From the NCBI GenBank assembly GCA_903813345.2, contig CAIIXF020000001.1, positions 6,510,001 to 6,574,000 on the forward strand: a stretch of DNA of 64,000 bases. Direction: 5' to 3'. Positions 74 to 62,946 of this stretch are shown here, piece after piece. The notes beneath the pieces are model-generated. The model saw only the letters and a program-made list of their open reading frames with translations. It ran no database searches and had not been told where the DNA came from. A program made the translations under genes and the position numbers. Positions within the stretch are counted from its first letter, which is position 1. Each line of letters opens with the position of its first letter. The DNA comes from Owenia fusiformis (taxonomy: Eukaryota).

Positions 74-2034
74 GTTTGTTGTTGCTGGTGACAAGTTGAA
101 GCAGCGTGTAAATGAGAAGAGGATAGGTGTCTACAGATATGATAAAGAAATGGGTCTGGATCCTGTAATGGTAACTAATGAACCTATCTTAACAGCAGAT
201 ATAATACCAGGTTTACTAGCCATTTGGTGGATTGAACCTGGACATATCCTTCAGAATGTTGTCACTTGATTTTGTATGAAAAGATTCATATATGAGCCTG
301 GCCATTGGAAAATTGGTCTTATCACAAAAATTAAAAATTGTGCTACAGAGCCAAAAATGTGCCCACGATTAAGAGGAAAGTGTGCTAAATTCAAATCCGA
401 CTTTTTGGTCTATATATGCAAGAAAAAGTGTTAAGACAAAAGCAATGGCTCATTTGAAAGGTCTCTTTGTGGTTTTCAAGATAAACAAAAAATCGGAATA
501 TTGAAAAAATCTGTGATAAGACTCCTTTTCCCGTGGCCTGGCTCATATCTTAAAGTCAGAATATAAAGAGTGATAAACCTGCAAGCAACATGTTGCATTG
601 TATTCCTTATGACCTCAAATATAATATCTCCCAATAGATCCGGGATATGCTATACATTGGTGAAGTTATTTAAAATTCAAAGTGCAAACATGGAGGGGGT
701 TCAAAATAAAGTATGCACTTTGGAGATAGAAAATAGATATGACATAGAATGATACGATATGAGCCAGAAATGTCCTGAAATTCAAACGATTTTTTATTGT
801 TGAGGTTGCTCGCAGATCTGATACAACCTTTAAGTCCCTAGACCAGTAGACACTGGTTTGGTGCATTGAATCTCAGGCAAAATGGAAATCATCTCATTTT
901 TTATATTTATGATCAACATGTGCAAACAAATATTTATTTAACGTATAGACGGATGTAAAACAAGATAAACAATATTATAACTGATTGCTCAAACGAGAAT
1001 AAACATAAAATCATAAAATTAACCATAACATAAACCATAAAATTGACTTATGCTGAGATGCAGAGTGGTAAATTAATATGGTTCAATAAATGTCTTTCTC
1101 AACTTTGCCCTCCACAAGGCTACATAACAAAATGAACTTTATTTATTCACATCTAGGCTAAAGAACTCAGAAATCATAAGTAAAATACCTCGATTTGCAC
1201 ATGAGAAATCGTCCAAGAATTCCCGCCAATTCAAAATTTCTTTTATGTATGATCTGGGATACTAAATTCCAAGGTATGATAAAGATATAGATGTCCTAAA
1301 CGTAACGAGAATTCGCATTTTCTCATGAAAATGTTAAGACTCATTCATCTGTTCATAATACTTTATTTTCATTTCAGACTCGAAAAGTCAGTGATCATTT
1401 TCCAGTTGAAATGGCAATTGAAGGAAGACGTAAGTCATCTGTTTTTATCTTCCCATAGAAACTCTTGAATATCATAGGCCATACGAGTGTACACTGTGCA
1501 GATATTACGAAAACGACTGACTTCTCTGGCTGTTTATTAATATTCGTGGTGGTTTCTCCATTGGTTCCTTATGCCACATCACATGTCTATATTTCTCCAA
1601 ATTAATTTTCAGGCAATTACAAGAATTCGAGAGTGACTTCATCATTTGCATACAGCCTTGAGTTCACCCCTATTGATGTAAGCAATCTGGACAAGGTGAA
1701 ATACATGGCATCTGCAGTACGTCGGAGTAGGGCATATTATGACATCAGTATCCTTGGGGATGGAGAAAACGATGTGATGTTCACAGCAACAAAGCAAAAA
1801 TATAGAGGCTCTGTCTACAGGACAGTGAAACTGTTCTCATCTAAATTTCCCGGCATTTTGAGCAATGAAGTTCTGGCAACACTGAAGTCCGTTTTGGACA
1901 GTAATGTGTTAAATGAAGAGCGCTATATATATGGTTCATCTGAGAAACCAGCAAAAGATCATAACATTGATATTTCTTGCCAATTCATCTCACCATTTAA
2001 ATGTACAATTCAAGTGGCAAAGCGTTTAGTCTAG
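74..2034 (+). CDS. DNase I-family (EEP) endonuclease, 3' part (5' exons lie upstream of the window), with an extra C-terminal domain exon
   Basis: Exons 74-170, 1378-1429 and 1613-2034, all AG/GT flanked and phase-consistent. They translate to (R)FVVAGDKLKQRV...YRYDKEMGLDPVM|TRKVSDHFPVEMAIEGR|RNYKNSRV...AKRLV*. RFVVAG and SDHFPVE match the DNase I DRIVVAG and catalytic SDH(Y/F)PVE motifs. Confidence 0.85.
294..544. mobile_element. Non-autonomous TIR element (MITE), Sola-like
   Basis: ~33-bp imperfect TIRs (GAGCCTGGCCATTGGAAAATTGGTCTTATCACA versus reverse complement GAGCCAGGCCACGGGAAAAGGAGTCTTATCACA), GAG...CTC termini, ATAT on both flanks (290-293, 545-548). Superfamily inferred from termini and TSD only. 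Confidence 0.6.
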
Positions 2035-4346
2035 CTGGTTAAACAAATTCATAGAACACATATTATACCTCCTAACCACAACCATGTGCGATTTTATCAA
2101 ACCATCTAGAAGATGGACGAACATGAATAGACAATGAATACTGCAGGACGACATCTATTTCACACAATGGAAATTAATGCAAAAAGTTTTTTGTTGATCT
2201 AGACTTGGATGCAAAGATTTATTTCTTCACAATTTCAAGTTAGTTACAAATTGTACAATGTACAAATGAATGGCACAACTAAGTATCTATTATTACTTTC
2301 TGTCATATCCACATGATCATTTTATTTTAATTCTTATGTAGTTTACACAATATCTTTTGATAATGCATGGATTCTTCCCTAAACGTACACTTATTTCCAT
2401 CAAATACACATGAACATGATACTTTTTAAAAATAACAATTTTCGTTTGTCAGATTTTTCTTAAACAATACCCTGTCTCTACACTCCGATCTTATATAAGA
2501 TGACACAGATATCAGAAGAGAAAAATCCACTTTTTTCAGAAAAGGTCCAAGTCCATGTTCCTGTTTTCAATTTGTTTCGTAACTAGTATTGATTTTTAGT
2601 ATTTCTAGAAACATGTTGACAACCAGGAACATGACTCGGCCCTTTTCACATTTTTGGCTGATATTTTTTGAGTATTTACAATTTATACAAACTCTTATTT
2701 ACACTTATTTATTTTCAGTGTCTGTACAGTCTAATACATCGCACAAATTAATCCAATGTAAATGAATTGAAATCATTTCAATTTGGGACATTTTTGAAGC
2801 TGCACATTAGACTGTGTGAATGCATTAATAAATGCGATCTATTAGACAGACACTGAATTACACTGTTTTTAAATAAACTAAGCATTTATGTTAATAACAT
2901 TTACAATATGGCTTCTGTACAGTACAAACATAACATAAGCAGTCTATGAAATGTTAATTACGTATACAACTGCAGTTCATTGCATAAGAAAGTATTTGAT
3001 GCATTTCTCCAAATTTGAAAATTGTCAGCTAGTACATGTCCATGATACTTCAAAGCCTATTTGAATACAATGAGAGTATAAGAATACTGTAATGGACATA
3101 ACATTTTCAGCGATCCATTTGGGAGAAGGATGCACATTTTGTAATGACAATTGAATTTCGAATGCTCCTTTGCACCTACTCCTTGCTAATCCAGTGTACA
3201 CTCAAAATTGTGCATAACTTTCTTAATCAAATTATGTATTCCAAAATGAACCCTTCATCAGTCATATCCAGTTTGGCACTTCATACAAACGACCTTCTTA
3301 CTAAAAAATATTTCTAGAACCAAAAATAAATCTCTTATAATATGAACAAAAATGTGTTTAACACAAATCTCTTTTTCATTTGAATTATTTAAACCTTGCT
3401 CAAGTGACGAATCATCAAAAAGATTTCACAGGGAATTCATATGCTGCTTACTTGCCATTCTTGATCTATGGCTTTCAATTATCTACTGCATTTAATCAAC
3501 AATTCATACATGCCAAGTGTGTCTCAGCCAATCAGCTTAAAGCATTCCAGTGTGTTAATTTATTGATATATGCATGAAAATGATTTTTCTGTGCATTTAA
3601 TCTTTGATAAATGCACGGACTGAACAGTACTATTCTTTAATAAAAAGGGGTGACACTATGGCCCTTAATTAGGTGTCTATCGAAAGAAGCTATTGAACTG
3701 ATCTGTTTGCCTTAATTACATAATCGTGCCTTTGCTGTAAGCGCACCATGCTCATAAGCATTTTGCTTTGTTTACTTAAGCAATGAAATTATACACTAGA
3801 TATATCGAGGTGAAGTTGGAGTAACTTAAACCTTGACAATCAAGATGTATAATACTAACAAGTTCAATTTATAATGAATCTTATTTATATGAAGCCAGTA
3901 GACATGTATGTTCACAATGGTCAATACAACTCTGAGGCATAAACATTACAAGGGGCAAACCCTTATATGAGTAAAAGCATTCTTTCAAATATTGATACAC
4001 ATGCTCCATAAAGTACAAAACTCTGTTTAATGAAATAAACATTTGGGTGTTTTACAGACATAATACACAGATGTTACATTGTCCAACATGCATGAGGACT
4101 GTAATGCTCCCTTGGATGATTAATGTGTGCATCTGTTGGCTATAAGAACTTTAAATACACTGATACATCCATATGTACAGTATATGTTCTTTCTGAAGCA
4201 TATGTTTTTTTAAACGTGTCTCCGTACTTGCACGGCTCTTTTGGATAAGACACTGCACTTCATATTGCTTCAGTGATGATGCACCTCATACATACATACA
4301 TATATATATATATATTTTTTCCATGACTAGATATGCTGTGAAAGAT

Positions 4347-7300
4347 CTATTTCTTCTTACGGTCATTCTGACACTTTGGGCAGAACCATTTGCCTTTAGG
4401 TTTAGCCTGCAGTCCAACACAAGCAAAGTGGAACCATTCTATTGGACACTGGAAATGAGAATATTATAAATAAAATCAAACTATTGGAACTAAAGAAATT
4501 GACATTAGAAAAGAGTATGTTCAATTTTAGTACCACTGATTTGATAGTGTAGCTTATGTGGGACAATATGGTCATGGAAATCATTGCTTTTCAACTACAG
4601 GTGGAGCTTCATCAAGTTTTAGCTGAATTTGGTATTCAAGTAGGGCAGAGATTTCAGGACCCACTATCACAAAAATAGATATATATCGATGTACTTTTTT
4701 AAAGTCGTTCTCACTTGGAGACGTCTTTGTCCATGATATGAGCATACTAGTATAACAAATATTGAGAAAAATTGTACTTACATCAGGGTTATCACATCCA
4801 ATCATCTCTCCATATGAGACCTGGTGACAGAGGCAATATGTTGGCTCATTGGGGTCCACAGGCATGTCAAGTACATCTGAAGGGTGGGTGATAGACAATG
4901 GTAGTGCTGGTAATGTGTTCGTCACTGGGATATCAGGCCTAAAATGCAAACTTCAGCATTATTTTGTACTTGGACACTTCTATTGGTCGTTGACATATAA
5001 GGGCATACTGACTGATGTAAAGAGTTGGGTCTTAAAAATATACAACGGTCGGTTCCAATCAAATGCGAAATTACAATACTAAATGCAAGAATCAAGTATA
5101 GTCTACACATGTGTAACAAGGCATGAGAAATGGCCTCGCAGAAATACAGATATTTTATAAATCAAAACTGAAGATGAAATCTAACAATTGTGTTAGACAA
5201 AGCATGGTGTTATATTGCTCAATTTTTGTCTTGCCTATTAAAAGGACAAGGTGCAATTATTGGCAAATATCCCTATGGTCAAAATGAATCATTCGTAGGT
5301 GTTACATGAAGAATAAAATGTCATATAATACTTTGGAAAATATTAAAGTGCTCGGACACACATAAGCTGAGATAGGGATCATTTCGTTCAGTAAGGTTGT
5401 ATTGACTTACATGGGGCTGTGCACCATTGACATAACATGAGAATATCAGCAGATCCCAATAGAGGCCATTGGTTTCAATTGATTATCACAGAAATACCAA
5501 AAATACACTATGACCTGAATCGATTGCAAACTTAATAATTTCACAATACGACACAAATGGTTTATCTCATCAAATGTGCAAATATGAAGTTTGCAATCGA
5601 TTCAGGTCATACTTAAAATTAAAAGATTGTACATTTTTTCATCATTTTTTTCCCTACAAAATGGCTTTAGAAAAATGCTCCAAAAACAACTTTTACACTT
5701 ATCAAATATCATACAAGTTTGTAAAACCAAAGATTATACTTAATTATATTTCATTATGTCGTAACATATTTGGATAAGATGCAGGGATGCGTAGGATGTA
5801 AATGGATTTTGACAGACACAAAAATACTTCCTGGTTTGGAATCTATGCCTCTACACTTCATGATTGAATTATGACCCTAATAAGTGGCCTATACATCAAT
5901 ACAGTGCTGAATATAGGTCAACAAGATACTAGTGTGCATATAAATGTAATAATTGAAGCAGAATACTCATTTTGAAAAATCAGATGAATTATTTTTTTCC
6001 CATGGGGAGATCCCAATGGCGGGTGTATAAGGTCCTTTGACCAGTCTATTTTTTGTATCTAGCTATATCCCTAATTTGTATTACAAATCAAATATAGAGT
6101 ATTTTACTTTCACATAAGATTAGGTTTTGGTAAGTATCTGTTGAAACTTACTGAATTTCTTGAGATTTCTTTTGCTTTTTCTTTTTCGGAATTTCATCTG
6201 AAAAATCTTCTTTTTGTCCCTTCTTCTTTTTCTTCTCTACAGTTTTTTGACCTTCTGAAATGCAAAAATAAATATTCAAAAAAACAATGATATTTGAACT
6301 TTGGTACATTGCATTACACAGGTGTTGGCAGATATCTTGGCAGAAAGAAACTCACTACTTGATTTATACGATGAAACAAATAACTCAAGTAACTCCGTCC
6401 CAAGGGAATTTTTTTGCTAGAATGAATAAGCTGAACTCCATCATTCTGATACACATAGCATCTAAAAACCTGTCCAGTGTGGGTCATATCCACTCGACAG
6501 TAGCCCAAGGTGGATGTAAATATTTAGAGTCGAGTGTAAAATTGAAGTGACTTGCCACATTGTCGAACATGAAATTCACCATTGTCGAATATTATAGAAC
6601 TAAGTCAATTTATAGTACTTTCATAAACATATTACTTTCTCTTTAAAGATTTTTATTCACAAGAAAACTGTTGTATATGTATCATCAGTGGCAACACTGT
6701 GGCGAGTATAAATTTTCATTGGCGAGTGTGAAAACACAAGTCGATTGCCAATTGGCGAGTGACAGAAAAATCCAAAGACACACACTCCTGTCTGTGTTTA
6801 GTTGCTCTGATTTTCCGTACCGATCCTGCTGATTGAAGGAGCGAGGCTTCCTATACAATCTTAAAATTCCTGGGAAGTTTACTCATGTAAAAAATTGACG
6901 TACTTTAAAAAAAATTAATTCATTTGTGCTTCCTACCGATTAAATACTCCATATTTTATAAGATGTTTATTTCTACTGTTATAAGAATTCATTACATCTG
7001 TAGTATGAAAAATATATAATAATTCGTAGGAACTGTTAGAAATAAGTGAATACTTGGGACTTTGCAAGGAATTGACCGTTTGCTATCAGAAATTGTTTAT
7101 TACACCGTTGCTATGCAGTTCGTTGAGAAATCATTTTTTAATAAGTGACATTTAAATCATGTGTTTGTTATTACGAATTTGATTAGTCCATCGATTCCAC
7201 CAATTCTGAATCGAAAGTGCCCTATACTAAATTCCATGGCAATCTACGTATAATGCAAGAAGAGAGGGCCATGGTATTCCATGATGGAACTTCATATACT

Positions 7301-55300: not shown

Positions 55301-58300
55301 TTGTTTATAGCAGTAGCAGATATTGTATGCTGGGGTTGTAAATAGTATGTACATGTACAACATTGACACTAATTTCCTTACCTCACGGGATATAATCCTC
55401 GCTGTTGGCACATCACATTCATCAGATAAAGCGACAAAATCTCCAAAAGACGACATCCTATCTGCTCCCCTTGCCCTTGCATATGCTATAGCTTGTGGGG
55501 TGAGGATCTCTAGCAGGTCATCCACCATACACAGCTTGGCCTGTTCTGTACTGAGGGGGAAGCCTACAGCAGCACCTGGCAGCACATAGAACACAATGTT
55601 AAATATTCTTCCCTGGCCTTTCTCCTTTTCTATCAAGTTCTTTGGATCTTAAAGATGAATGTTTAGTGAGCGCAACAAATACAATACGAGTGTTGCTGTA
55701 ACACTGTGAGTGATTCTAAAACACTACTGGTCAAGCATTGTTTGATAATAAGTGACCTACCTGCAGGGCTAACATGCTTGAATGATGTAGCAGCTGGTAA
55801 TCCAAGAGCTTGCTTCAGTTCTCTAACAAGCTGCCAGCCATTCAGGGCATCACATAGATTGATGAACCCAGGTGACCCATTCAACACTGAAATGTTCACA
55901 AACACATATAGAATCAATATAAATCCACACATGTATCTACAGAACGTCTTTCCCAGCTGTTTTAAAATCTCACTCCTGGTCCTTATCTCTCAAAGGAGCT
56001 TATTTACTGTCAGCAAGTTACTTTTATAACGCAGGAGCACACTTTCCTTGATGCTGTAGAAATACCTCATTTAGTAGTTCAAATATCAACTTTATATGCT
56101 AAATGAACTATTTCAAGTTATACAGAATACATTACCTGTAACAGGGAGCTTGGGTTGGGTAGTGTAGAGCTGGGCAGGCTTCTGGTGTGGGTTCATGCCA
56201 TACCTCAGAGGGAGCTGGGACACACCCTCACTGTATTCCCTTCTGAAGTAATCTGATATTGCTCCGTCATACTCAGCTGTGTGGTTGAATGCCTAGCAAA
56301 GAATCCATTGATGTACATGTAATTTGTAAGGCAAAACATTTACAGTATAATATTTCTTTGAGATAACTTGCATCTTTTTTCGGAGGAATCTAAATCCAAA
56401 TAGCACTCTCTCAACAGACTTCACGCTAGACTCACAATAAAATGTTTTCTTTTAAAAACAGTTTCTCCTCAAATTGCATATTTTCTCTTGTTTGTTGTCC
56501 AAGATATGAAAAACAAAAATCAACACAACCATAATACAGGACAAGATTTCCATATGGATATTTCAAACAAATTTTCTTTAGATACCAGAGACGTTCTCTC
56601 TGGAATGCTGTGGATGACTTGATAAAACAATCTAATAACATATTGAATTTCAATAAATCATACAACATCAATTTCTCATAAAATATGAATGTTTGAATTA
56701 TTTACTGTAGCTCAAATACTTAGTATGAATCTCTCTTTCTTAGACCTATCACCACTTAAAATAATATATCATACAATTCTGTTGATCATTGAATCTTCAC
56801 TTTTACTTGAACTGAATGAGTATGTCTACAGTACCTTAACTGCTAGTGTTTTCCTGGTGTCCACTGATGTATCTTTAGCATCAGAACTCTCCATCTCATC
56901 ACAAATGTTGTCGTAATCATTAGGGTCACAAACCACTGTAACTCTTGCATGATTCTTAGCAGCTGCTCTCAGTAATGTCACACCACCTTAAATTGAATAA
57001 GTGTAGTGAGAACAGGTTTATTTAATGTTGCATTTAAAGGAGGGCATATTACCACATTACCTCTTCCATCCACCACTTTCGTTTTGTGCGAATTTTCATT
57101 CATCAATTATCTAAATGCTACATATACATGTATGTACTATCAAAGTGCTGTTTTAGTTTCAATAAACACATTCTTTACATCCCTTTTATCTTGATGAATA
57201 AAAAGTCATAATGTCTTTTAAAGTTTATTCTTTCATAAATAAAAGTATCAAATTTGGTTCACCCTGTTAAAAGTCCCTCCAGACACTTGCACTTTCTTAC
57301 CAGTCCACAGTGAACAATTTTGACAAAGACATTTAAATAATGAAAAATGTATTTTATCAAAGAGCAATAATATAAAGGTAACAAGCCAATAACTTCTTAA
57401 AATTTCATATATGAAATTTGAATCTGTCCACTAGTATTTGAGTTATCAAAGTTTATATATCTACAGAAAATAGTAGCCAATTTGAATTGAGTGGCCATAT
57501 TGAAAATTTCTTCTCAAACAAAAGTCCTTTTTAATTGCTTATATGGCGTACTTTGCGAACTATTTTTCACCATGTTTTATAAATATTGAATAAAGTAGAA
57601 TAAAAGTGAACATTTCTTACTGGAGTAAACTACTATTGGCGGTTAACCATTAACCATCGAGAGCCCAAATAAATCACCATTATCAAACTATAAAACCTGT
57701 TTTGTAACTTGAAGTTCTCAGAAGTTCTAAGGAGCGAGACAACAGCGAACGGATTGAATCATATTTTCCAGTTACCATGGATTCATTTCATAAATTGAGT
57801 CTTGAGGAAAAGGCTGATGCTCAGAAGCCAAAGAAGCCAATCAATGTTTTCAGTATTGATCTACAGAGTGTAGCTACTGGGAAAAAATGTAATGATAGAT
57901 CACCAGCATACATCTGTGTAATTGGAGAAGATAACAGTACGATCTATGAAACATTCATCAAACCAGATCGCAGAGTTGTGTCATACACTGAACCCTATAC
58001 AGGAATAAAGTCTTCAGACCTAGATGATGCCCCAACAATGTCAGAAGTCACAGCAAAGCTCAAGGCATACTTTGGAAATCATCCAACCATAGTCGGGCAA
58101 GATAACAACTTTGGTCATACAATAGAGCTGATGACATCATTGGGATTTGAAAAGGAGAAAGATTACAAGTATATCGCCATATCTGAATGGTTCAAGTTGT
58201 ACCAGGGAAGCAGAGGTGGTAAATATCCATATCTCTACTTCACTCTAGATGTACAACTGAGGGCCTTACTTAGTGAGTTTAATGTTCATCTCTTGTACTT

Positions 58301-60018
58301 TAACCCTCAAAGGAAAGCTGGTCAATATATAAAAAATGAAAATGAAGACTCGGGACTGGAAATTCCATACTGGTAGTGAATCGCGAAAGTGAAAGAATTA
58401 CATTTTATCAAAGTAAAGATGGTCTGCCAGTGTTCTCCACAAAATTTTAAAGAGGGTGCAAAATTCTCATTTTGAAAATTCAGAAAAAATTGGGTTTAAT
58501 ATGCCAATTTGATTTTTCATTAGTGGGTGCAATTGGATTTTCAAGTTTGTGCAAGCCTGTGTTCAAAATCTCACATGGGTTATGATTAGGTGATACTGTT
58601 AGTGGCAAATCTATTAATTTAGCTTGTGAAAATAACATTATTGTATGGTTTAATGGTAAATGATTTTTTGAAAAAAATGAAATCTCTTCCATAGACTTCA
58701 CGCAAATGGATATTAAGTAAAAACAAACAAGTCAAGCGACAGTAGCCACGAAACAAAGAAGTCCTTTCAGGGTCCCACTTTAATCCAAGATTCACAGTGT
58801 ATCTCAATATTTAACTAATGATTTGATATAATATACAAAACATTTTTAAAATGAAACTGAAACTGAAAAATAATACTCCAATAATATTGTCACACTTTTC
58901 CATCAGAAAATGCCATTGGAGAATCTGCTCAAATATTATTGTACATTCAATTTTCAGACAAACCATTGAGCAGGGGTCTTGGTTCCAAAGGAAGGGCTTA
59001 CATGAATCTTTACAATGCCTACAAAGATAAAGATGTCACCGATTTTGAAAGTGCCAAGCAGAAATGTTATTCTATGCGTGGATATCTGAGAAAAGGACAT
59101 AAGGAGGTTCCATTCTCTGAATTACATCCAACATACGAGGGTGTTTGTCAGGGGCGTATTCCACCAGGTCAGAGGACTGCCACATGTCCATGTGGGACTC
59201 GAAAGTGGTAACAAATACAACAGCTGCTCAAGAGACATTTGAATAAGACATTAGATCAAACATAGTCAAACTTTGACAAACTTTATTGCAAAGTCCAATT
59301 TAGAATTAGAAGCATTGAAAAAGGTGGACAACTTCTCCAGTCAACCAGACTGAAGTGATAATGCAATTGGTTTTACATTTACACCAGTCACTGAACGAAA
59401 ATGCAACACCGATGAATACATCTCATTGAATACGCCTGGCATCACACAACAAGTAGAAATCAGCTTCAAGAATGTTATTTTGTAGAAAATTCAACGAAGA
59501 GGTGACACTCAGAAGATGGTAAACTTGTGATGAGTTTTATTTCATATATTGCACATAATGTATTTCCAAAAATAACTTGATATTGATCTATCTTAATGCA
59601 ATAAATGGCTTGCCAAAAATACCACTGTGTGTGATTTTTTACAAAATTAATTATGTGGGGTGAGAAAAACCCAGGACATGGGTTGGATGACAATGCGCAA
59701 TGTTTCAAGAAATAAAGACATCAATATTTTGAACCAGTCAATAGAATTCCATTTTAAAGGTGTTCCATTTACAAAGGTTTACGTTACATTTAATAAAAAA
59801 CAAGATCAGAATGTTGTCATTAATGAAGAAAATGGGACCAGTTTCTACATCCAAGTACTTACCAATATCTATCTGTTCCACTGCATCGTCCACCTTTACA
59901 TCTTTAGCTGAGATGGTCTTAACAAATGGGTACAAGTTGCAGGCCACTACTCTGATATACTGGTGCCCTTGCTTCTCCATGTCAGCCTTGTCTGAGTCAA
60001 TCATCCTGGCTAGAATCC
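52387..60018 (-). CDS. ATIC: Bifunctional AICAR transformylase/IMP cyclohydrolase (PurH), 3' 12 exons; 5' exons not found and presumably beyond the window end
   Basis: Exons on the minus strand: 60018-59863, 56986-56835, 56292-56136, 55886-55761, 55575-55382, 55054-54965, 54733-54605, 54176-54010, 53691-53583, 53154-53095, 52910-52815, 52506-52387; all phases fit. Motifs [81 protein letters not shown]. Confidence 0.97.
53354..53556 (-). mobile_element. MITE of the CAGGCCCGTAGCCAGG family, copy 3 (inverted)
   Basis: Near reverse complement of 31134-31339 along its length; lies 27 bp from an ATIC exon. Confidence 0.85.
57777..59211 (+). CDS. DEDDh 3'-5' exonuclease-fold protein (REXO4/ISG20-like), probably catalytically degenerate, nested antisense in an ATIC intron; 249 aa
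   Basis: Exons 57777-58272 (donor A|GTGAGT) and 58958-59211 (acceptor TTTTCAG), phase 1, 750 nt. Motifs [48 protein letters not shown], and C-terminal YEGVCQG...CPCG. Confidence 0.85.
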
Positions 60019-60705
60019 CTAAATGAACAATTTTGATCAATGAGATGACAGTTGATAGTAGATTTTAGATACTAATCTTGAACTAGCTTGATGATACTCA
60101 TTATTTTTATTTATATTCAGTAAGTAAAGCAACAGTATATTAAGTGATCTTCCAAGCATTCTACCATGTTACATATTCAATGAGGTCACTGAGAAAGCAT
60201 TGCGCACGCAACAGACGTTTGAAATATCAGTGTGTTGCAGACACGCGAATAGAACAGACGTATCGCCTTTGGTGCGATATATACGGTTAGTGAATTAAAA
60301 GTTTTTCATTAAACCTTCACTTATTATTGATCAGTATTCTGTTGGGAAGCAAAAGAGTATAATTACAATTTTGTTATCTATGATGCTGATTATTTTCATC
60401 ATTTTGACACGGTCAATTTGATTTTTCATTTTCTTTGTTCTTCCTTTGTTTAAAAAGGCGGGAGAAACAGTCAATAAATATTGACTCACCCTTTAATGCC
60501 TTCATGCATACGTTTTTCTACCACACTGCGTGGAATTAAAACGTCCTTTGACCATTCAACTGTTCAAAAACAGTTATTTATACGTGCTGTCGCATGATTG
60601 TACAATTCTGAGTACAAAAACATACCACGTGCAATATCATTGACACGTTCAACTGCTCAATAGCAATCAGTTCATGCGTTCAGAGTTAGTGCATGTATAA
60701 ATCGT

Positions 60706-62946
60706 ATGCAATCGAACATGTCACAAGCATTAAGGTCTAAACCTTCCTTTCAAGAAGATTTGGACAGTGGAACAAAGACAAAATCTTCAAAGAAGTCCAG
60801 CTCTGTAAAAGCTAAAAGTTCCGACAAGTCGGTCATTATGAAGTCGCCAAGCTTGACATCAGAAGCCACTGCCTCTTCAATGGGAAGTGAGCCTTGTAAA
60901 TCCACGAACAATGAATCTGGTATCCCCGTGAGCTTTGTACAGGATATTACAAATGCTATTAGCACGGGATTGGGATGTATCAAAGATACAGGGTGTCCAA
61001 AAAAAAGCAGGACCGTAAGAAAGTTGAATAACTCAGTCAATTTTGCATATTTTGTCTTGAAATTTCAGAATTATTTAGTTCATTCGATGTGAATTTTGTT
61101 GTGAAAGTTTGACAATAATCTGCCAATTGAGTCAAAAATTATAGCTCCTTACAAAACATGCCCTAAATGTGCACCTCTCCTCTCTATGCACAATTTAATC
61201 CTGCGATCAAAGTTGTTGATGATCCTCCTACACACATGTCTTTCTGAATGGACAAGTTTGTTTCAAGAACAATTGCTACTTAGGCTTACTTTCCTCCTGA
61301 TGAAGTGTTACAGCATCCATTGCATTCTGAGCAATGCACTGCCTAGGTGGCAATGAGGAAACATGGAATCATCAGTCCTTTTTTGTTCGAGGGTGACTGG
61401 GGACATGCTATCACCATGAACAAGGACCAGTTAGTTCTCACTTAGTTTTTTGGAGGTCACTAAGCACCAGAAGGGACATCTTAGGAGATAAGCAGTGGTT
61501 TCAACAAGCCAATACCACCCCAAAACTGCAAATGATATGCTGAAATGGTCTAGGCAATGATTTGGTGGTCAGCTCATCAGTTGCAGAACGCAAACCATAT
61601 GGGCAGCTCATTCCCCAGATCTAAATCCCCCAAATTTTTATCTTTGGGGATTTCTCAAGCCCAATGTGTATACAGACAGGCCCCTAACAATCTTAAGAGG
61701 GCAATAACTACCCCAATATTTACCATCCACATTGATATGTATAGGTCAGGGTCATTAACAACTTTCTTAGCAGGAATCGTTTGTGCATAGAGAGGAGAAG
61801 TGCCCACTTTGACCATGTTTTGTAAAGAACTGTAGTTTTTGACACAATGGACAGATTATCATGAAACTTTCAGAACAAAATTCACATTGAATGAACTAAA
61901 TAATTTTAAAATTTCAAGGCAAAATATATAAAATTGACCGAATTATTCAACTTTCTTATGGTCCTGTTTTTTTTTGGACACCCTGTACTATGGTCGAAGC
62001 TTTAGGTGATATAAAGCAATCTTTGAAAACCGACTACCAAGCTGGTCAATATGATGATTATGGTGATATTCCTGATCAAGAGGATGAGGATCCTGACATC
62101 CTTGAACCACCTGCTAAAAAGCAGAAAACTTCCTCGTCCGAATCGACTGAAGTTTTTTCTTCCCTTATGAATAAACTTCGATCTAAGACCAAGTTACAAG
62201 ACGATAATGGACCTCCTTTATCTGAAGCTATGGCTGAAATCGTCACAGAACTAATCCAGGCGAAGCCAGAGGATGACGATATCGTATCTAAATTAGATGG
62301 TCACAAGACGCCTGAAAACGTTCCATTATTGTGCACTACAAAGGTCAATGAACCTATTTGGACTCGGGTCTCAGCCGAAGTTCGCTCTAATGATATTAAA
62401 TATCAAAAAGTGCAAACTCCCCTTGTGAAGGGTATAATTGCTTCTTCACGTGCATTGGAAGCACTGGATAATCTCAAAGAGACTCTTAGCAAAGAATCCG
62501 ATGCTTATGATGATGTGCTTACGACCATCGCGGAATTAGTGTACGAAAATATGCTATTCAGCAGTTATGCAAACTTGAAACTTAACATGCGTAGACGTGA
62601 ACTTTTCAAAAATGAAATTAATCAAAGTTTCAAGCATTTGTGCGCCAAATCTGTGCCAATTACCCAGTTTCTCTTTGGAGACGACATCTCTAAACAGGTG
62701 AAAGAGATAGCAGAAATGAATAAAACGCAACTGCGAGGCGTTTTTCCGTCTTCCACTCGGGGTAATCGAGGAAGGGGACGTGGTTACGGTGGACGTGGTC
62801 GTGGAAACAATTCCAACAACCATTTTTTAGGCCAGGGCTACGGCAGAAACAACCACCAGCGGAACTCTACCCGATATCCCAACAAGAGAGGGAGAGGGGC
62901 CAAGAGCAAATCCAGCAATGCCAGCGAGAAAACCACCAATCAATAG
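60706..62946 (+). CDS. DIRS ORF1 (gag-like), 413 aa after removal of the inserted Tc1/mariner element
   Basis: 60706-60988 joined to 61988-62946 is in frame (AAA GAT A|CT ATG). Contains PENVPLLCTTKVNEPIW, RRRELFK, QFLFGDD and an RG-rich tail. Confidence 0.8.
60989..61985 (+). mobile_element. Non-autonomous Tc1/mariner element inserted in DIRS ORF1
   Basis: CAGGGTGTCCAAAA...TTTTGGACACCCTG, imperfect TIRs of ~205 bp, TA TSD (60987-88, 61986-87). The interior has decayed transposase motifs WFQQ and PDLNP..FYLWG. Confidence 0.92.

What the first reader, a model, noticed from the sequence alone, without database searches (positions are those of the whole stretch)
57777..59211. Nested antisense gene in ATIC encoding a probable pseudo-nuclease of the DEDDh family
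Seen: an intact two-exon 249-aa gene inside the 2.9-kb ATIC intron (56987-59862) on the opposite strand. ExoI reads SIDLQS instead of DxE, the ExoII region [11 protein letters not shown] lacks the usual Asp spacing, and the ExoIII position reads [11 protein letters not shown] without H...D, while scaffold motifs (KP...V.SY....TGI...DL..AP) and a C-terminal EGVC...CPCG Cys cluster persist. Known: DEDDh catalysis needs four acidic residues plus His. Inference: a non-catalytic nucleic-acid-binding or decoy protein from an atypical subfamily, possibly acquired by duplication or horizontal transfer; this is my best candidate for an undescribed system in the window.
Basis: partly seen in the sequence, partly recalled or inferred. 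Interest (0 to 1): 0.8.

Follow-up and report, generated by a model that had tools for sequence, protein, structure and literature searches.

The report
Dead exonuclease gene nested in ATIC
A small intact gene sitting backwards inside an intron of the purine-synthesis gene ATIC of the worm Owenia fusiformis encodes an exonuclease-shaped protein that has lost four of its five catalytic residues; it belongs to a rare, unnamed clade otherwise seen only in protists and unnamed environmental sequences.

Summary
A two-exon gene lies on the + strand: 57777-58272, a GT..AG intron, then 58958-59211. It sits inside ATIC intron 56988-59862 on the - strand. It encodes 249 aa, identical to a deposited Owenia fusiformis protein.

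The fold is a DEDDh exonuclease, closest to ISG20 (Z 17.6) and Pan2. A profile alignment to intact relatives shows that only the first Asp survives. The changes are E->Q30, D->G113, H->L173 and D->K176.

It is not an orphan. It belongs to a supported clade of 8 similarly "dead" proteins (SH-aLRT 98). The clade also includes an Owenia paralog and a foraminiferan sequence. It is nested in a mostly protist family that keeps the DEDDh residues and shares the C-terminal Cys motif. Named members of that family come from choanoflagellates, an oomycete and a euglenid.

Conservation across the clade and a pN/pS of about 0.3 argue for function. My best guess is a non-catalytic RNA-binding module with a zinc-stapled tail, analogous to Maelstrom, Exuperantia and PML-PXL. 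Binding, zinc and expression are unproven, and horizontal transfer is neither shown nor excluded. It is a new variant of a known kind, of moderate interest.

The parts
57777..58272 (+). Exon 1 of the nested gene (codons 1-165 plus the first base of codon 166). It encodes the N-terminal low-confidence tail and most of the exonuclease-like core.
   Evidence: Sequence; translation; identical to P0003 residues 1-165.
57858..57866 (+). Remnant of the ExoI motif: D28-L29-Q30. The Asp is kept and the catalytic Glu is replaced by Gln.
   Evidence: HMMER alignments to ISG20L2 and SDN1 put 'IDLQ' on 'IDCE' and 'VDCE'. hhalign to intact relatives gives the same placement.
57888..57890 (+). Cys38. It is invariant in the dead clade. 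The same column is an invariant His in the intact relatives. Proposed zinc ligand (inference).
   Evidence: Invariant columns of A2 and A4; co-occurrence counts.
58113..58115 (+). Gly113, at the column of the ExoII catalytic Asp.
   Evidence: hhalign of A2 against A4.
58273..58957 (+). Intron of the nested gene (685 nt, GT..AG, phase 1, 31% GC).
   Evidence: The annotated protein P0003 requires this splice.
58958..59211 (+). Exon 2 (rest of codon 166 to the stop TAA). It encodes the ExoIII remnant, C-terminal helices and the Cys motif.
58978..58989 (+). Remnant of ExoIII: L173 at the catalytic His column and K176 at the catalytic Asp column.
   Evidence: hhalign of A2 against A4.
59140..59208 (+). 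C-terminal motif [23 protein letters not shown] (C229, C242, C244). It is shared with the intact parent family (GVCM...CxCG). Proposed zinc-binding tail (inference).
   Evidence: G208, C210, C219 and C221 are invariant in 16 intact relatives. pLDDT of the last three 10-residue blocks is 92, 70 and 80.
56988..59862 (-). Host intron of ATIC (2875 nt), which contains the whole nested gene in antisense orientation.
   Evidence: Minus-strand GTAAGT at 59862 and AG at 56988; flanking exons identified.
56826..56987 (-). ATIC exon downstream of the host intron ([13 protein letters not shown]...).
   Evidence: Pfam AICARFT_IMPCHas, E 1.6e-10, 41.4 bits.
59863..60064 (-). ATIC exon upstream of the host intron. 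Its own 5' boundary was not determined; 60064 is only the end of the open frame.
   Evidence: Weak Pfam MGS match, E 0.0066, 17 bits, below the cut-off of 24. The frame is listed.

Best explanation
This is a real, intact, lineage-restricted gene of Owenia fusiformis. It encodes a catalytically dead member of the REX/SDN/ISG20/PAN2 branch of DEDDh 3'-5' exonucleases.

It descends from a mostly protist family that keeps all five DEDDh residues. That family carries a C-terminal Cys motif (GVC...CxCG) plus a His in the beta1-beta2 hairpin.

In one clade the active site was dismantled. The clade holds the two Owenia paralogs, a foraminiferan sequence and several unnamed environmental eukaryotes. 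In the Owenia protein the changes are E->Q30, D->G113, H->L173 and D->K176. The fold, the hairpin ligand (now Cys38) and the C-terminal Cys motif were kept.

Shown: the gene structure, the fold, the loss of catalytic residues, the clade membership, and conservation after the loss.

Inferred:
- The protein cannot perform two-metal exonucleolysis.
- Cys38, Cys229, Cys242 and Cys244 bind a structural zinc that staples the tail to the core.
- The protein works as a non-cleaving binder of single-stranded RNA or RNA 3' ends. Other DEDD-fold pseudo-nucleases (Maelstrom, Exuperantia, PML-1 PXL) have been shown to work this way.
For: Gene and identity. The splice model gives 249 aa, identical to the deposited protein P0003.

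Fold.
- The AlphaFold2 model has mean pLDDT 88.3 and pTM 0.83.
- Foldseek puts ISG20L2, Pan2, ISG20 and SDN1 at the top, with E 4e-9 to 2e-6.
- VIA-align gives ISG20 Z 17.6 and Pan2 Z 16.2.

Homology. HMMER against 1.84 billion representatives found 188 proteins at E<=1e-3. The profile of the dead clade aligns to the profile of 16 intact relatives with probability 99.95%, E 1.3e-37, over 212 columns. That alignment places Q30, G113, L173 and K176 on the E, D, H and D columns. In the 16 intact relatives D19, E21 and D104 are invariant, and H158 and D163 are nearly invariant.

Clade. In a tree of 81 rows the 8 D-x-Q/H rows form one clade (SH-aLRT 98). The Owenia pair (99) is sister to P0005 plus the Nonionella stella protein P0006 (96).

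Selection.
- Motifs persist across the clade at about 30-40% identity.
- Among 13 differences listed in the exons between the window and contigs of other individuals, 6 are synonymous and 7 are non-synonymous, in 6 codons.
- This gives pN/pS of 0.27-0.31. The binomial p against neutrality is 0.025-0.038.
- Two of the replacements (T71I and N166->G) move towards the clade consensus.

Zinc idea. Among 52 family members whose C-terminal region is on record:
- 38 have both H/C at the position-38 column and the Cys motif;
- 8 have neither;
- 6 have H/C only;
- 0 have the motif only.

Precedents. The abstract and section 5 of PMC4408791 cover the Maelstrom MAEL domain. It has a DEDD fold and a structural Zn bound by ECHC. 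An amoeba form with DEDD is active, and the metazoan form is inactive and binds ssRNA. Passages of PMC13659232 describe PML-1 PXL and Exu as DEDDh-fold pseudo-nucleases that bind nucleic acids.

Charge. The calculated pI is 9.0 for the whole protein and 9.3 for the tail.
Against: - No binding, zinc or activity data exist, and I could not inspect the model's coordinates. The zinc site is untested.
- The phylogenetically corrected test of the position-38/Cys-motif link is underpowered. It found 4-6 independent pairs, and the motif state differed in only 1 of them.
- In Owenia the clade's C-x2-H histidine is Arg232.
- The paralog P0004 as annotated (170 aa) lacks the whole Cys tail.
- Expression is barely documented. 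In the raw RNA run X11 only 2 of 25 laid reads lie fully on the stretch. Both are in exon 2 and may be mates of one fragment. In X12, 0 of 21 do. No spliced joint was listed in any of the 4 runs.
- The polymorphism count is small, and the call lists only the best-supported differences (27 are not shown).
- Pfam RNase_T is below its gathering score (19.6 against 24 bits).
- D28 and Q30 are conserved, so a residual one-metal or other chemistry is not excluded.
Confidence: 0.55

Rival explanations
1. It is a pseudoenzyme that acts through protein-protein contacts, as a scaffold or as a regulator of an active nuclease or another partner. Nucleic-acid binding is not its main function.
For: The conserved surface motifs specific to the dead clade (YQYFTL, EPYTG, and the extended GVCxGHIxSGxxG tail in relatives) need not face the former active site. 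From general knowledge rather than any call, many pseudoenzymes regulate active paralogs.
Against: No intact member of the same family was found under an Owenia name. Only P0003 and P0004 carry that name. The characterised DEDD-fold pseudo-nucleases I read about bind RNA (PMC4408791 abstract; PMC13659232 passages). No partner was tested here.
Confidence: 0.2
2. It is still a nuclease, or another hydrolase, that uses a rebuilt site. Candidates are D28, Q30 and D109/H114/E118 near the old ExoII motif.
For: D28 is kept in 7 of the 9 clade sequences that include this region, and Q or H stands at position 30 in all 9. Owenia has D109, H114 and E118 close to the old ExoII position.
Against: D109, H114 and E118 are not conserved in the clade. 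P0005 reads VGQASFEVFKK and P0006 reads VFQNSLQAMDP. Two members have Asn in place of D28 (P0005 and P0018). Established knowledge of two-metal DEDDh chemistry requires the four acidic residues.
Confidence: 0.1
3. It is a silent or decaying gene copy, a gene prediction without function that is drifting neutrally inside the ATIC intron.
For: Raw RNA-seq support is minimal and no spliced joint was seen. The paralog P0004 looks truncated. Pfam is below threshold.
Against: The two-exon frame is intact with canonical splice sites. It is one of 2 frames of 150 codons or more in 64 kb. pN/pS is about 0.3. The same catalytic losses and the same conserved motifs are shared with distant eukaryotes in a supported clade. 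So the dead state has been maintained for a long time. The model is confident, with pLDDT 88.
Confidence: 0.1
4. On origin, which is independent of function: the gene entered the Owenia lineage by horizontal transfer from a protist, or on a mobile element. It then gained an intron and duplicated.
For: Among named records the dead clade contains only Owenia and a foraminiferan. The rest are unnamed short contigs. No other animal name appeared in 188 HMMER hits as far as names could be looked up; 20 of the hits were looked up. Kolobok transposons of marine invertebrates can carry DEDDh exonucleases (PMC9587614, passages).
Against: The intact parent family occurs in choanoflagellates (Salpingoeca), so vertical descent with losses is possible. 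CDS GC (0.41, GC3 0.36) equals that of the host exons. The gene has a spliceosomal intron. No terminal inverted repeats flank it and there is no transposase frame in the intron. The KolobokD exonucleases are described as Exu/TREX/ERI1-like, whereas this one is ISG20/SDN/PAN2-like. Most relatives are unnamed, so the taxon sampling cannot decide.
Confidence: 0.2

Closest known systems
ISG20 / ISG20L2 / REXO4 / SDN1 / PAN2 exonuclease domains (REX-type DEDDh 3'-5' exoribonucleases; Pfam RNase_T PF00929)
   Same: The fold is the same: ISG20 Z 17.6, rmsd 2.5 over 154 residues; Pan2 Z 16.2; SDN1 Z 13.4. They are the nearest solved relatives by sequence. For the intact relatives' profile, SDN1 scores E 1.4e-21, ISG20L2 1.2e-18, ISG20 9e-17 and PAN2 4.5e-11. 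For the dead clade's profile, SDN1 scores 1.7e-9. The scaffold motifs KP..V.SY...TGI..DL..A are shared.
   Different: Four of the five catalytic residues are replaced. VGQ stands in place of VGH. There is an extra 57-residue C-terminal extension with a Cys motif. Pfam is below its gathering score. The family forms its own branch apart from REXO4-type (D-C-E-M-V-G) sequences, with SH-aLRT 100.
Unnamed 'DVECVATG ... GVCM..CxCG' exonuclease family of protists (members named in Pythium oligandrum, Salpingoeca spp. and Ploeotia vitrea; the ESM Atlas cluster is commonest in Chlorophyta)
   Same: It is clearly homologous over 212 columns (hhalign 99.95%). The length (about 220-235 aa) and the C-terminal Cys motif are the same. 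Position 38 holds His or Cys. The Atlas structure match has TM 0.74 over residues 15-249.
   Different: Those proteins keep D, E, D, H and D and pass Pfam RNase_T in several cases. The Owenia clade lost E, D, H and D. It replaced the Cys after ExoI Glu by Ser or Leu, and the hairpin His by Cys. Most of its members gained a longer GVCxGHIxSGxxGxxCxCG tail.
Maelstrom MAEL domain (Pfam PF13017)
   Same: The evolutionary pattern is the same. It has a DEDD fold with an added Cys/His metal site. Protist forms with DEDD are active and metazoan forms without DEDD bind ssRNA (PMC4408791, abstract and section 5; PMC2628886, passages). The MAEL zinc ligands are E(beta2), C-x2-H and x8-C. The dead clade's relatives have C(before beta2), C-x2-H and x9-C-x-C.
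   Different: No sequence relation was detected. 0 of 20 family members hit the Maelstrom model at E<=10. No Maelstrom chain appears in the PDB profile searches at E<=10 or in the fold lists shown. There is no HMG box. In MAEL the CHC lies between the last helices of the fold; here it lies after them. In Owenia the His is Arg232.
Exuperantia EXO-like domain and PML-1 PXL (EXO-SAM pseudo-nucleases); EXD1 (recalled, not examined here)
   Same: They are DEDD-fold proteins without the catalytic residues that bind RNA (PMC13659232, passages). Exu appears in the fold list at Z 11.5.
   Different: They are TREX/ERI-like rather than ISG20/SDN-like. They carry a SAM-like subdomain, which is absent here. 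They have no Cys tail. They score much lower than ISG20 and Pan2.

Membership tests
DEDDh (DnaQ-like) exonuclease superfamily | RNase H-like alpha/beta fold of the DnaQ/DEDD type | tested here: met
   The AF2 model has pLDDT 88.3. Foldseek gives 196 PDB matches at E<=0.001, led by ISG20L2, Pan2 and ISG20. VIA-align gives ISG20 Z 17.6.
DEDDh (DnaQ-like) exonuclease superfamily | Five catalytic residues: D and E in ExoI, D in ExoII, H and D in ExoIII | tested here: not met
   Only D28 is kept. The other columns hold Q30, G113, L173 and K176 (hhalign of A2 against A4; the intact columns are invariant or nearly so in A4).
Pfam RNase_T (PF00929) | Score at or above the curated gathering threshold (24 bits) | tested here: not met
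   19.6 bits, E 0.0015, covering only residues 50-112. 17 of 20 aligned family members match at E<=10, with a best E of 3.6e-10.
REX/SDN/ISG20/PAN2 branch of DEDDh | Closest sequence and structure relatives lie in this branch | tested here: met
   PDB profile searches return SDN1, ISG20L2, ISG20 and PAN2 first. The fold searches agree.
Unnamed DVECVATG/GVCM-CxCG exonuclease family | Full-length homology, including the C-terminal Cys motif and H/C at the hairpin position | tested here: met
   hhalign 99.95%, E 1.3e-37, 212 columns. C38, C229, C242 and C244 are present. In the tree the dead clade lies inside the 72-row family branch that is separated from REXO4-type rows (SH-aLRT 100).
Dead 'D-x-Q' clade of that family | Gln/His at the ExoI Glu column, loss of the ExoII and ExoIII residues, Cys at position 38, monophyly | tested here: met
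   The 8 rows form one clade with SH-aLRT 98, and 97-98 again on core columns only. C38 is invariant in A2.
Maelstrom (MAEL) domain | Match to the MAEL sequence model or to MAEL structures | tested here: inconclusive
   No Maelstrom hit in 20 of 20 members scanned at E<=10. No MAEL chain at E<=10 in the PDB profile searches. None is shown in the fold lists, but those lists are truncated.
Maelstrom (MAEL) domain | ECHC zinc ligands (Glu in beta2, C-x2-H, x8-C) | tested here: not met
   Owenia has C38 rather than Glu, C229-x2-R232 with no His, then x9-C242-x-C244. The ligand pattern comes from PMC4408791, section 5.
EXO-SAM pseudo-nucleases (Exu, PML-1 PXL) | SAM-like subdomain following the EXO-like domain | tested here: inconclusive
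   No Pfam family other than RNase_T matched P0003 at E<=10. The tail is only 57 residues, made of helices plus a Cys hairpin. The tail was not folded or searched on its own.
Transposon-borne DEDDh exonuclease (KolobokD) | Terminal inverted repeats and a DDD/E transposase next to the exonuclease gene | tested here: not met
   No flanking inverted repeats were found in 56988-59862 (only 2 short internal pairs). No other long frame lies in the intron.

The most novel reading that the evidence does not exclude
The D-x-Q clade is an old, undescribed family of zinc-stapled pseudo-exonucleases that read RNA 3' ends without cutting them. It would be a second, independent occurrence of the Maelstrom-type 'active-site switch', this time in the ISG20/SDN/PAN2 branch. 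The annelid Owenia would have obtained its copy from a protist such as a foraminiferan by horizontal transfer, domesticated it with an intron inside ATIC, and duplicated it.
Probability: 0.12. Interest if true: 0.65.

Novelty: new variant of a known kind. Interest (0 to 1): 0.42.

Why it matters
DEDD-fold pseudo-nucleases such as Maelstrom, Exuperantia, EXD1 and PML-1 PXL have turned out to be RNA-handling factors with important roles.

This locus adds an independent case in the ISG20/SDN/PAN2 branch. It comes with a natural series of forms: intact protist enzymes, at least two separate inactivations (the Owenia clade and locus L002), and a conserved Cys motif. That series makes the question of what remains when the chemistry is removed directly testable.

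The patchy distribution also makes it a tractable case for deciding between gene transfer and massive loss. So far one annelid and one foraminiferan are the only named holders of the dead clade, and the parent family is present in choanoflagellates.

For annotation, it shows that 'Exonuclease domain-containing protein' is misleading for this gene.

Tried and rejected
- Whole-genome search: no genome is held for this window. The paralog's DNA, synteny and dN/dS between paralogs could therefore not be examined.
- Earlier findings of the scan: nothing by place or by sequence.
- Word-index protein searches found only the two Owenia proteins with single queries. The clade profile found 6 proteins. 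The exhaustive HMMER search was what revealed the family.
- Sequencing runs: no RNA holder is listed. The kinds of X1-X10 are guesses.
- Contig runs laid. In X2 contigs cover 57585-58345 and 58938-59782. Apart from a repeat spike, they leave 58346-58937 uncovered. This looks like the two exons with untranslated regions. However, no spliced joint was listed, X2 also covers ATIC intron sequence at 57002-57295, and X1 covers the nested intron. I do not count any of this as evidence of transcription.
- Maelstrom membership was considered because of the similar C-x2-H-x9-C pattern. It is not supported by the sequence models.
- Transposon cargo (KolobokD, PMC9587614): no inverted repeats or transposase were found.
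- The covariation test for the zinc site by independent pairs was underpowered.
- The ESM Atlas search with the tail alone (residues 190-249) gave feature scores of 0.88 or less and TM below 0.5. The only family-related rows were the same exonuclease clusters.
A 5-sequence alignment worked.
- The bacterial promoter/terminator scan is irrelevant for an animal gene and is ignored.
- Literature: the motif strings DVECVATG, QSVATG and DVECVA gave 0 papers. The search pseudoenzyme/exonuclease/RNase H-like/lost catalytic residues/RNA-binding gave 0 papers. 'Owenia fusiformis' plus exonuclease gave 2 papers, and neither is about this gene.
- Supplementary files of papers are closed. Expression tables of Owenia studies that might list this gene could not be seen.
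- No complex prediction was run, because no binding claim depended on it.

Full report
1. THE OBSERVATION

On the + strand an ATG at 57777 opens a frame that runs to a GTGAGT donor at 58273. A pyrimidine-rich tract ending in CAG at 58957 precedes the second exon, which ends with TAA at 59209-59211.

The two exons are 496 and 254 nt long, which gives 249 codons plus a stop. The printed translation is the same as P0003. P0003 is a 249-aa protein deposited for the annelid Owenia fusiformis ('unnamed protein product'; UniRef name 'Exonuclease domain-containing protein'). It lies on a 62-Mb contig. tblastn of P0003 on the window gives the same two blocks.

The frame that holds exon 1 is one of only two stop-to-stop frames of 150 codons or more in the 64-kb window. 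Chance is therefore not an issue.

On the minus strand the gene is flanked by two exons that match the ATIC domains. AICARFT_IMPCHas scores E 1.6e-10. MGS scores only E 0.0066 (17 bits), below the Pfam cut-off of 24. The host intron runs from GTAAGT at 59862 to AG at 56988.

2. WHAT THE PROTEIN IS

Sequence alone gives only a sub-threshold Pfam RNase_T match of 19.6 bits against a cut-off of 24, covering residues 50-112. Matches to ISG20L2 and SDN1 are weak, at E 6e-4 and 3e-3.

An AlphaFold2 model built on a 20-sequence family alignment is confident, with mean pLDDT 88.3 and pTM 0.83. It is a DEDDh exonuclease fold.
- Foldseek's best PDB matches are ISG20L2, Pan2, ISG20 and SDN1.
- The Foldseek-independent aligner gives ISG20 Z 17.6 (rmsd 2.5, 154 residues), Pan2 Z 16.2 and SDN1 Z 13.4. 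The pseudo-nuclease Exuperantia is further down at Z 11.5.

3. RELATIVES

The word-indexed searches saw only the protein itself and one Owenia paralog, P0004. P0004 is 170 aa, 66-68% identical, and lies on another 41-Mb contig.

The exhaustive HMMER search of 1.84 billion representatives found 188 proteins at E<=1e-3, of which 16 scored at or below 1e-10. Most of them share three features:
- the ExoI signature D-V-E-C-V-A-T-G;
- V-G-Q....D-I-x-W-L (ExoII) and H-D-P-x-x-D-A (ExoIII);
- in many full-length members, a C-terminal G-V-C-M......C-x-C-G motif.

In an alignment of 16 such proteins, D19, E21, C22, H29, D104, C210, C219 and C221 are invariant. H158 and D163 are nearly invariant. They look like active enzymes.

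Named members come from Pythium oligandrum (fused to CCCH zinc fingers), two Salpingoeca choanoflagellates and the euglenid Ploeotia. The ESM Atlas places the Owenia protein structurally next to two clusters:
- a 236-aa cluster that is commonest in Chlorophyta, with TM 0.74 over residues 15-249;
- an oomycete CCCH-exonuclease cluster.

The profile of these intact proteins hits SDN1 (1.4e-21), ISG20L2, ISG20 and PAN2 in the PDB. The family therefore belongs to the REX/SDN/ISG20/PAN2 branch. In a tree it is separated from classical REXO4-type (D-C-E-M-V-G) sequences with SH-aLRT 100.

4. THE DEAD CLADE

A small subset shares the Owenia peculiarities. Its members are P0003, P0004, P0005, P0006 (Nonionella stella, a foraminiferan transcriptome), P0007, P0015, P0018, P0035, P0159 and P0160/P0161.

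Their shared features are:
- Gln at the ExoI Glu column (His in P0018);
- Ser or Leu in place of the following Cys;
- Cys in place of the hairpin His, making C38 invariant;
- no ExoII Asp and no ExoIII His...Asp in the closest members.

The C-terminal motif is kept, and in most members it is lengthened to G-V-C-x-G-H-I-x-S-G-x-x-G-x-x-C-x-C-G...W.

Profile-profile alignment of this clade against the intact relatives gives probability 99.95%, E 1.3e-37, over 212 columns. It fixes the correspondences for Owenia: D28 is kept, E->Q30, ExoII D->G113, ExoIII H->L173 and D->K176.

In an 81-row maximum-likelihood tree (quick search) the eight long-enough members form one clade with SH-aLRT 98. The two Owenia proteins (99) are sister to P0005 plus the foraminiferan P0006 (96). 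A second tree on core columns only agrees, with support of 97-98. The catalytic loss therefore predates the split of these sequences and was inherited, not acquired in Owenia.

A metagenome locus, L002, carries a differently damaged copy with D-V-Q, His kept at the hairpin, ExoII Asn and ExoIII Arg. It falls in another clade with support 99, so the family has lost its active site at least twice.

5. IS IT FUNCTIONAL?

Several results support function.
- The frame and splice sites are intact.
- The model is confident.
- Motifs such as I-D-x-Q-S-V-A-T-G-x-K-C-x-D-R, E-P-Y-T-G, Y-Q-Y-F-T-L and the Cys tail persist at 30-40% overall identity.
- Contigs from other individuals (runs X1 and X2) differ from the window at 13 listed exon positions. 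Six are synonymous and seven are non-synonymous, in six codons.
- This gives pN/pS of 0.27-0.31, with binomial p of 0.025-0.038 against neutrality.
- Two replacements (T71I and N166->G) restore the clade consensus.

Other results weaken that case or leave it open.
- The polymorphism sample is small. withholds 27 less-supported differences, at most one of them in the contig covering exon 1.
- Only two raw RNA-seq reads in X11 lie fully on the stretch. Both are in exon 2, with the first mate on the minus strand. X12 has none. About 6% of each run was read.
- No spliced joint was listed.
- The paralog as annotated lacks the Cys tail.

6. HOW IT PROBABLY WORKS

With four of five catalytic residues gone, two-metal 3'-5' exonucleolysis is not expected. 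This follows from established DEDDh chemistry. The residues that could substitute in Owenia (D109, H114, E118) are not conserved in the clade.

What is conserved is the scaffold, D28/Q30, and a set of Cys/His positions. Among 52 family members whose C-terminal region is on record:
- 38 have both His/Cys at the position-38 column and the C-terminal Cys motif;
- 8 have neither;
- 6 have only the former;
- none has only the latter.

I therefore propose that C38, C229, C242 and C244 hold a structural zinc that ties the tail to the beta1-beta2 hairpin. This is inference. The phylogenetically paired test had too few contrasts, and I could not read model coordinates.

By analogy I propose a non-cleaving single-stranded RNA or 3'-end binding role.
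- The MAEL domain has a DEDD fold plus a structural zinc bound by ECHC. An amoeba form with DEDD is active. Metazoan Maelstrom is inactive and binds ssRNA (PMC4408791, abstract and section 5; PMC2628886, passages).
- PML-1 PXL and Exu are DEDDh-fold pseudo-nucleases that bind nucleic acids (PMC13659232, passages).
- The calculated pI of 9.0 is compatible with this role.

The resemblance to MAEL is one of pattern, not of membership. No Maelstrom model or chain was detected.

7. ORIGIN

The named holders of the dead clade are one annelid and one foraminiferan, and everything else is unnamed. One such contig, L001, is genomic and has a GT donor directly after '...ELFK'. Its intron is therefore in a different place from the Owenia intron.

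The Owenia coding sequence has the GC content of the host exons. It has a spliceosomal intron, no flanking inverted repeats and no transposase neighbour. The intact parent family is present in choanoflagellates.

Horizontal transfer from a protist and vertical descent with widespread loss both remain open. I put transfer at about 0.2.

8. NOVELTY AND VERDICT

The gene is already in the public annotation, but only as a generic exonuclease-domain protein. I found nothing in print on this family or clade. The searches were made, and supplements are closed.

The phenomenon of a DEDD-fold pseudo-nuclease is well known. This is a new variant in a different branch of the superfamily, with a neat active-to-dead series.

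The functional and transfer claims are untested, and the interest score of 0.8 is too high. I give 0.42.

Noticed in passing
window 57384-57575: A short stretch in the ATIC intron, about 200-400 nt upstream of the nested gene's ATG, has summed contig depths of 650-4800 in X1 and X2, against 10-20 around it. It also attracts most of the partially fitting raw RNA reads of X11 and X12. It is probably a high-copy repeat or transposon fragment.
   Followed up: no
window 58440-58535: A second small repeat-like spike lies inside the nested gene's intron. X2 depth is 27.8 with zero depth beside it. X11 has partial reads here, with a loose end at 58484.
   Followed up: no
window 61900-62946 (+): This is the only other long open frame of the window (348 codons stop to stop). 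It has an acidic middle and an RG/RGG-rich C-terminus. No Pfam family matched at E<0.09. Its relation to ATIC or to a mobile element is unknown.
   Followed up: partly
L002 1042-1539 (metagenome contig): This is a member of the same exonuclease family with an independent loss of the active site: D-V-Q, ExoII Asn and ExoIII Arg, with His kept at the hairpin position. It follows a long Q/N/P-rich N-terminal region. It groups with a different clade (support 99).
   Followed up: partly
L001 167-574 (metagenome contig): This is a relative of the dead clade (P0007-like, 38% GC). Its frame stops at a GTATG donor right after '...ELFK'. It is therefore a genomic eukaryotic contig with an intron at a different position from the Owenia intron. 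The rest of the gene is off the contig.
   Followed up: partly
window 57988, 58272 and 58958: Contigs of other individuals carry T71I, and at split codon 166 both A>G changes (Asn to Gly if they lie on the same haplotype). Both replacements match the consensus of the dead clade and of the paralog P0004. The reference allele may therefore be the derived one.
   Followed up: partly
P0004 (Owenia paralog, other chromosome; not in the window): The annotated paralog is only 170 aa. It starts at the equivalent of residue 22 and ends shortly after '...LYNAYKE', so it lacks the whole Cys tail. It is either a truncated duplicate or an incomplete gene model.
   Followed up: no
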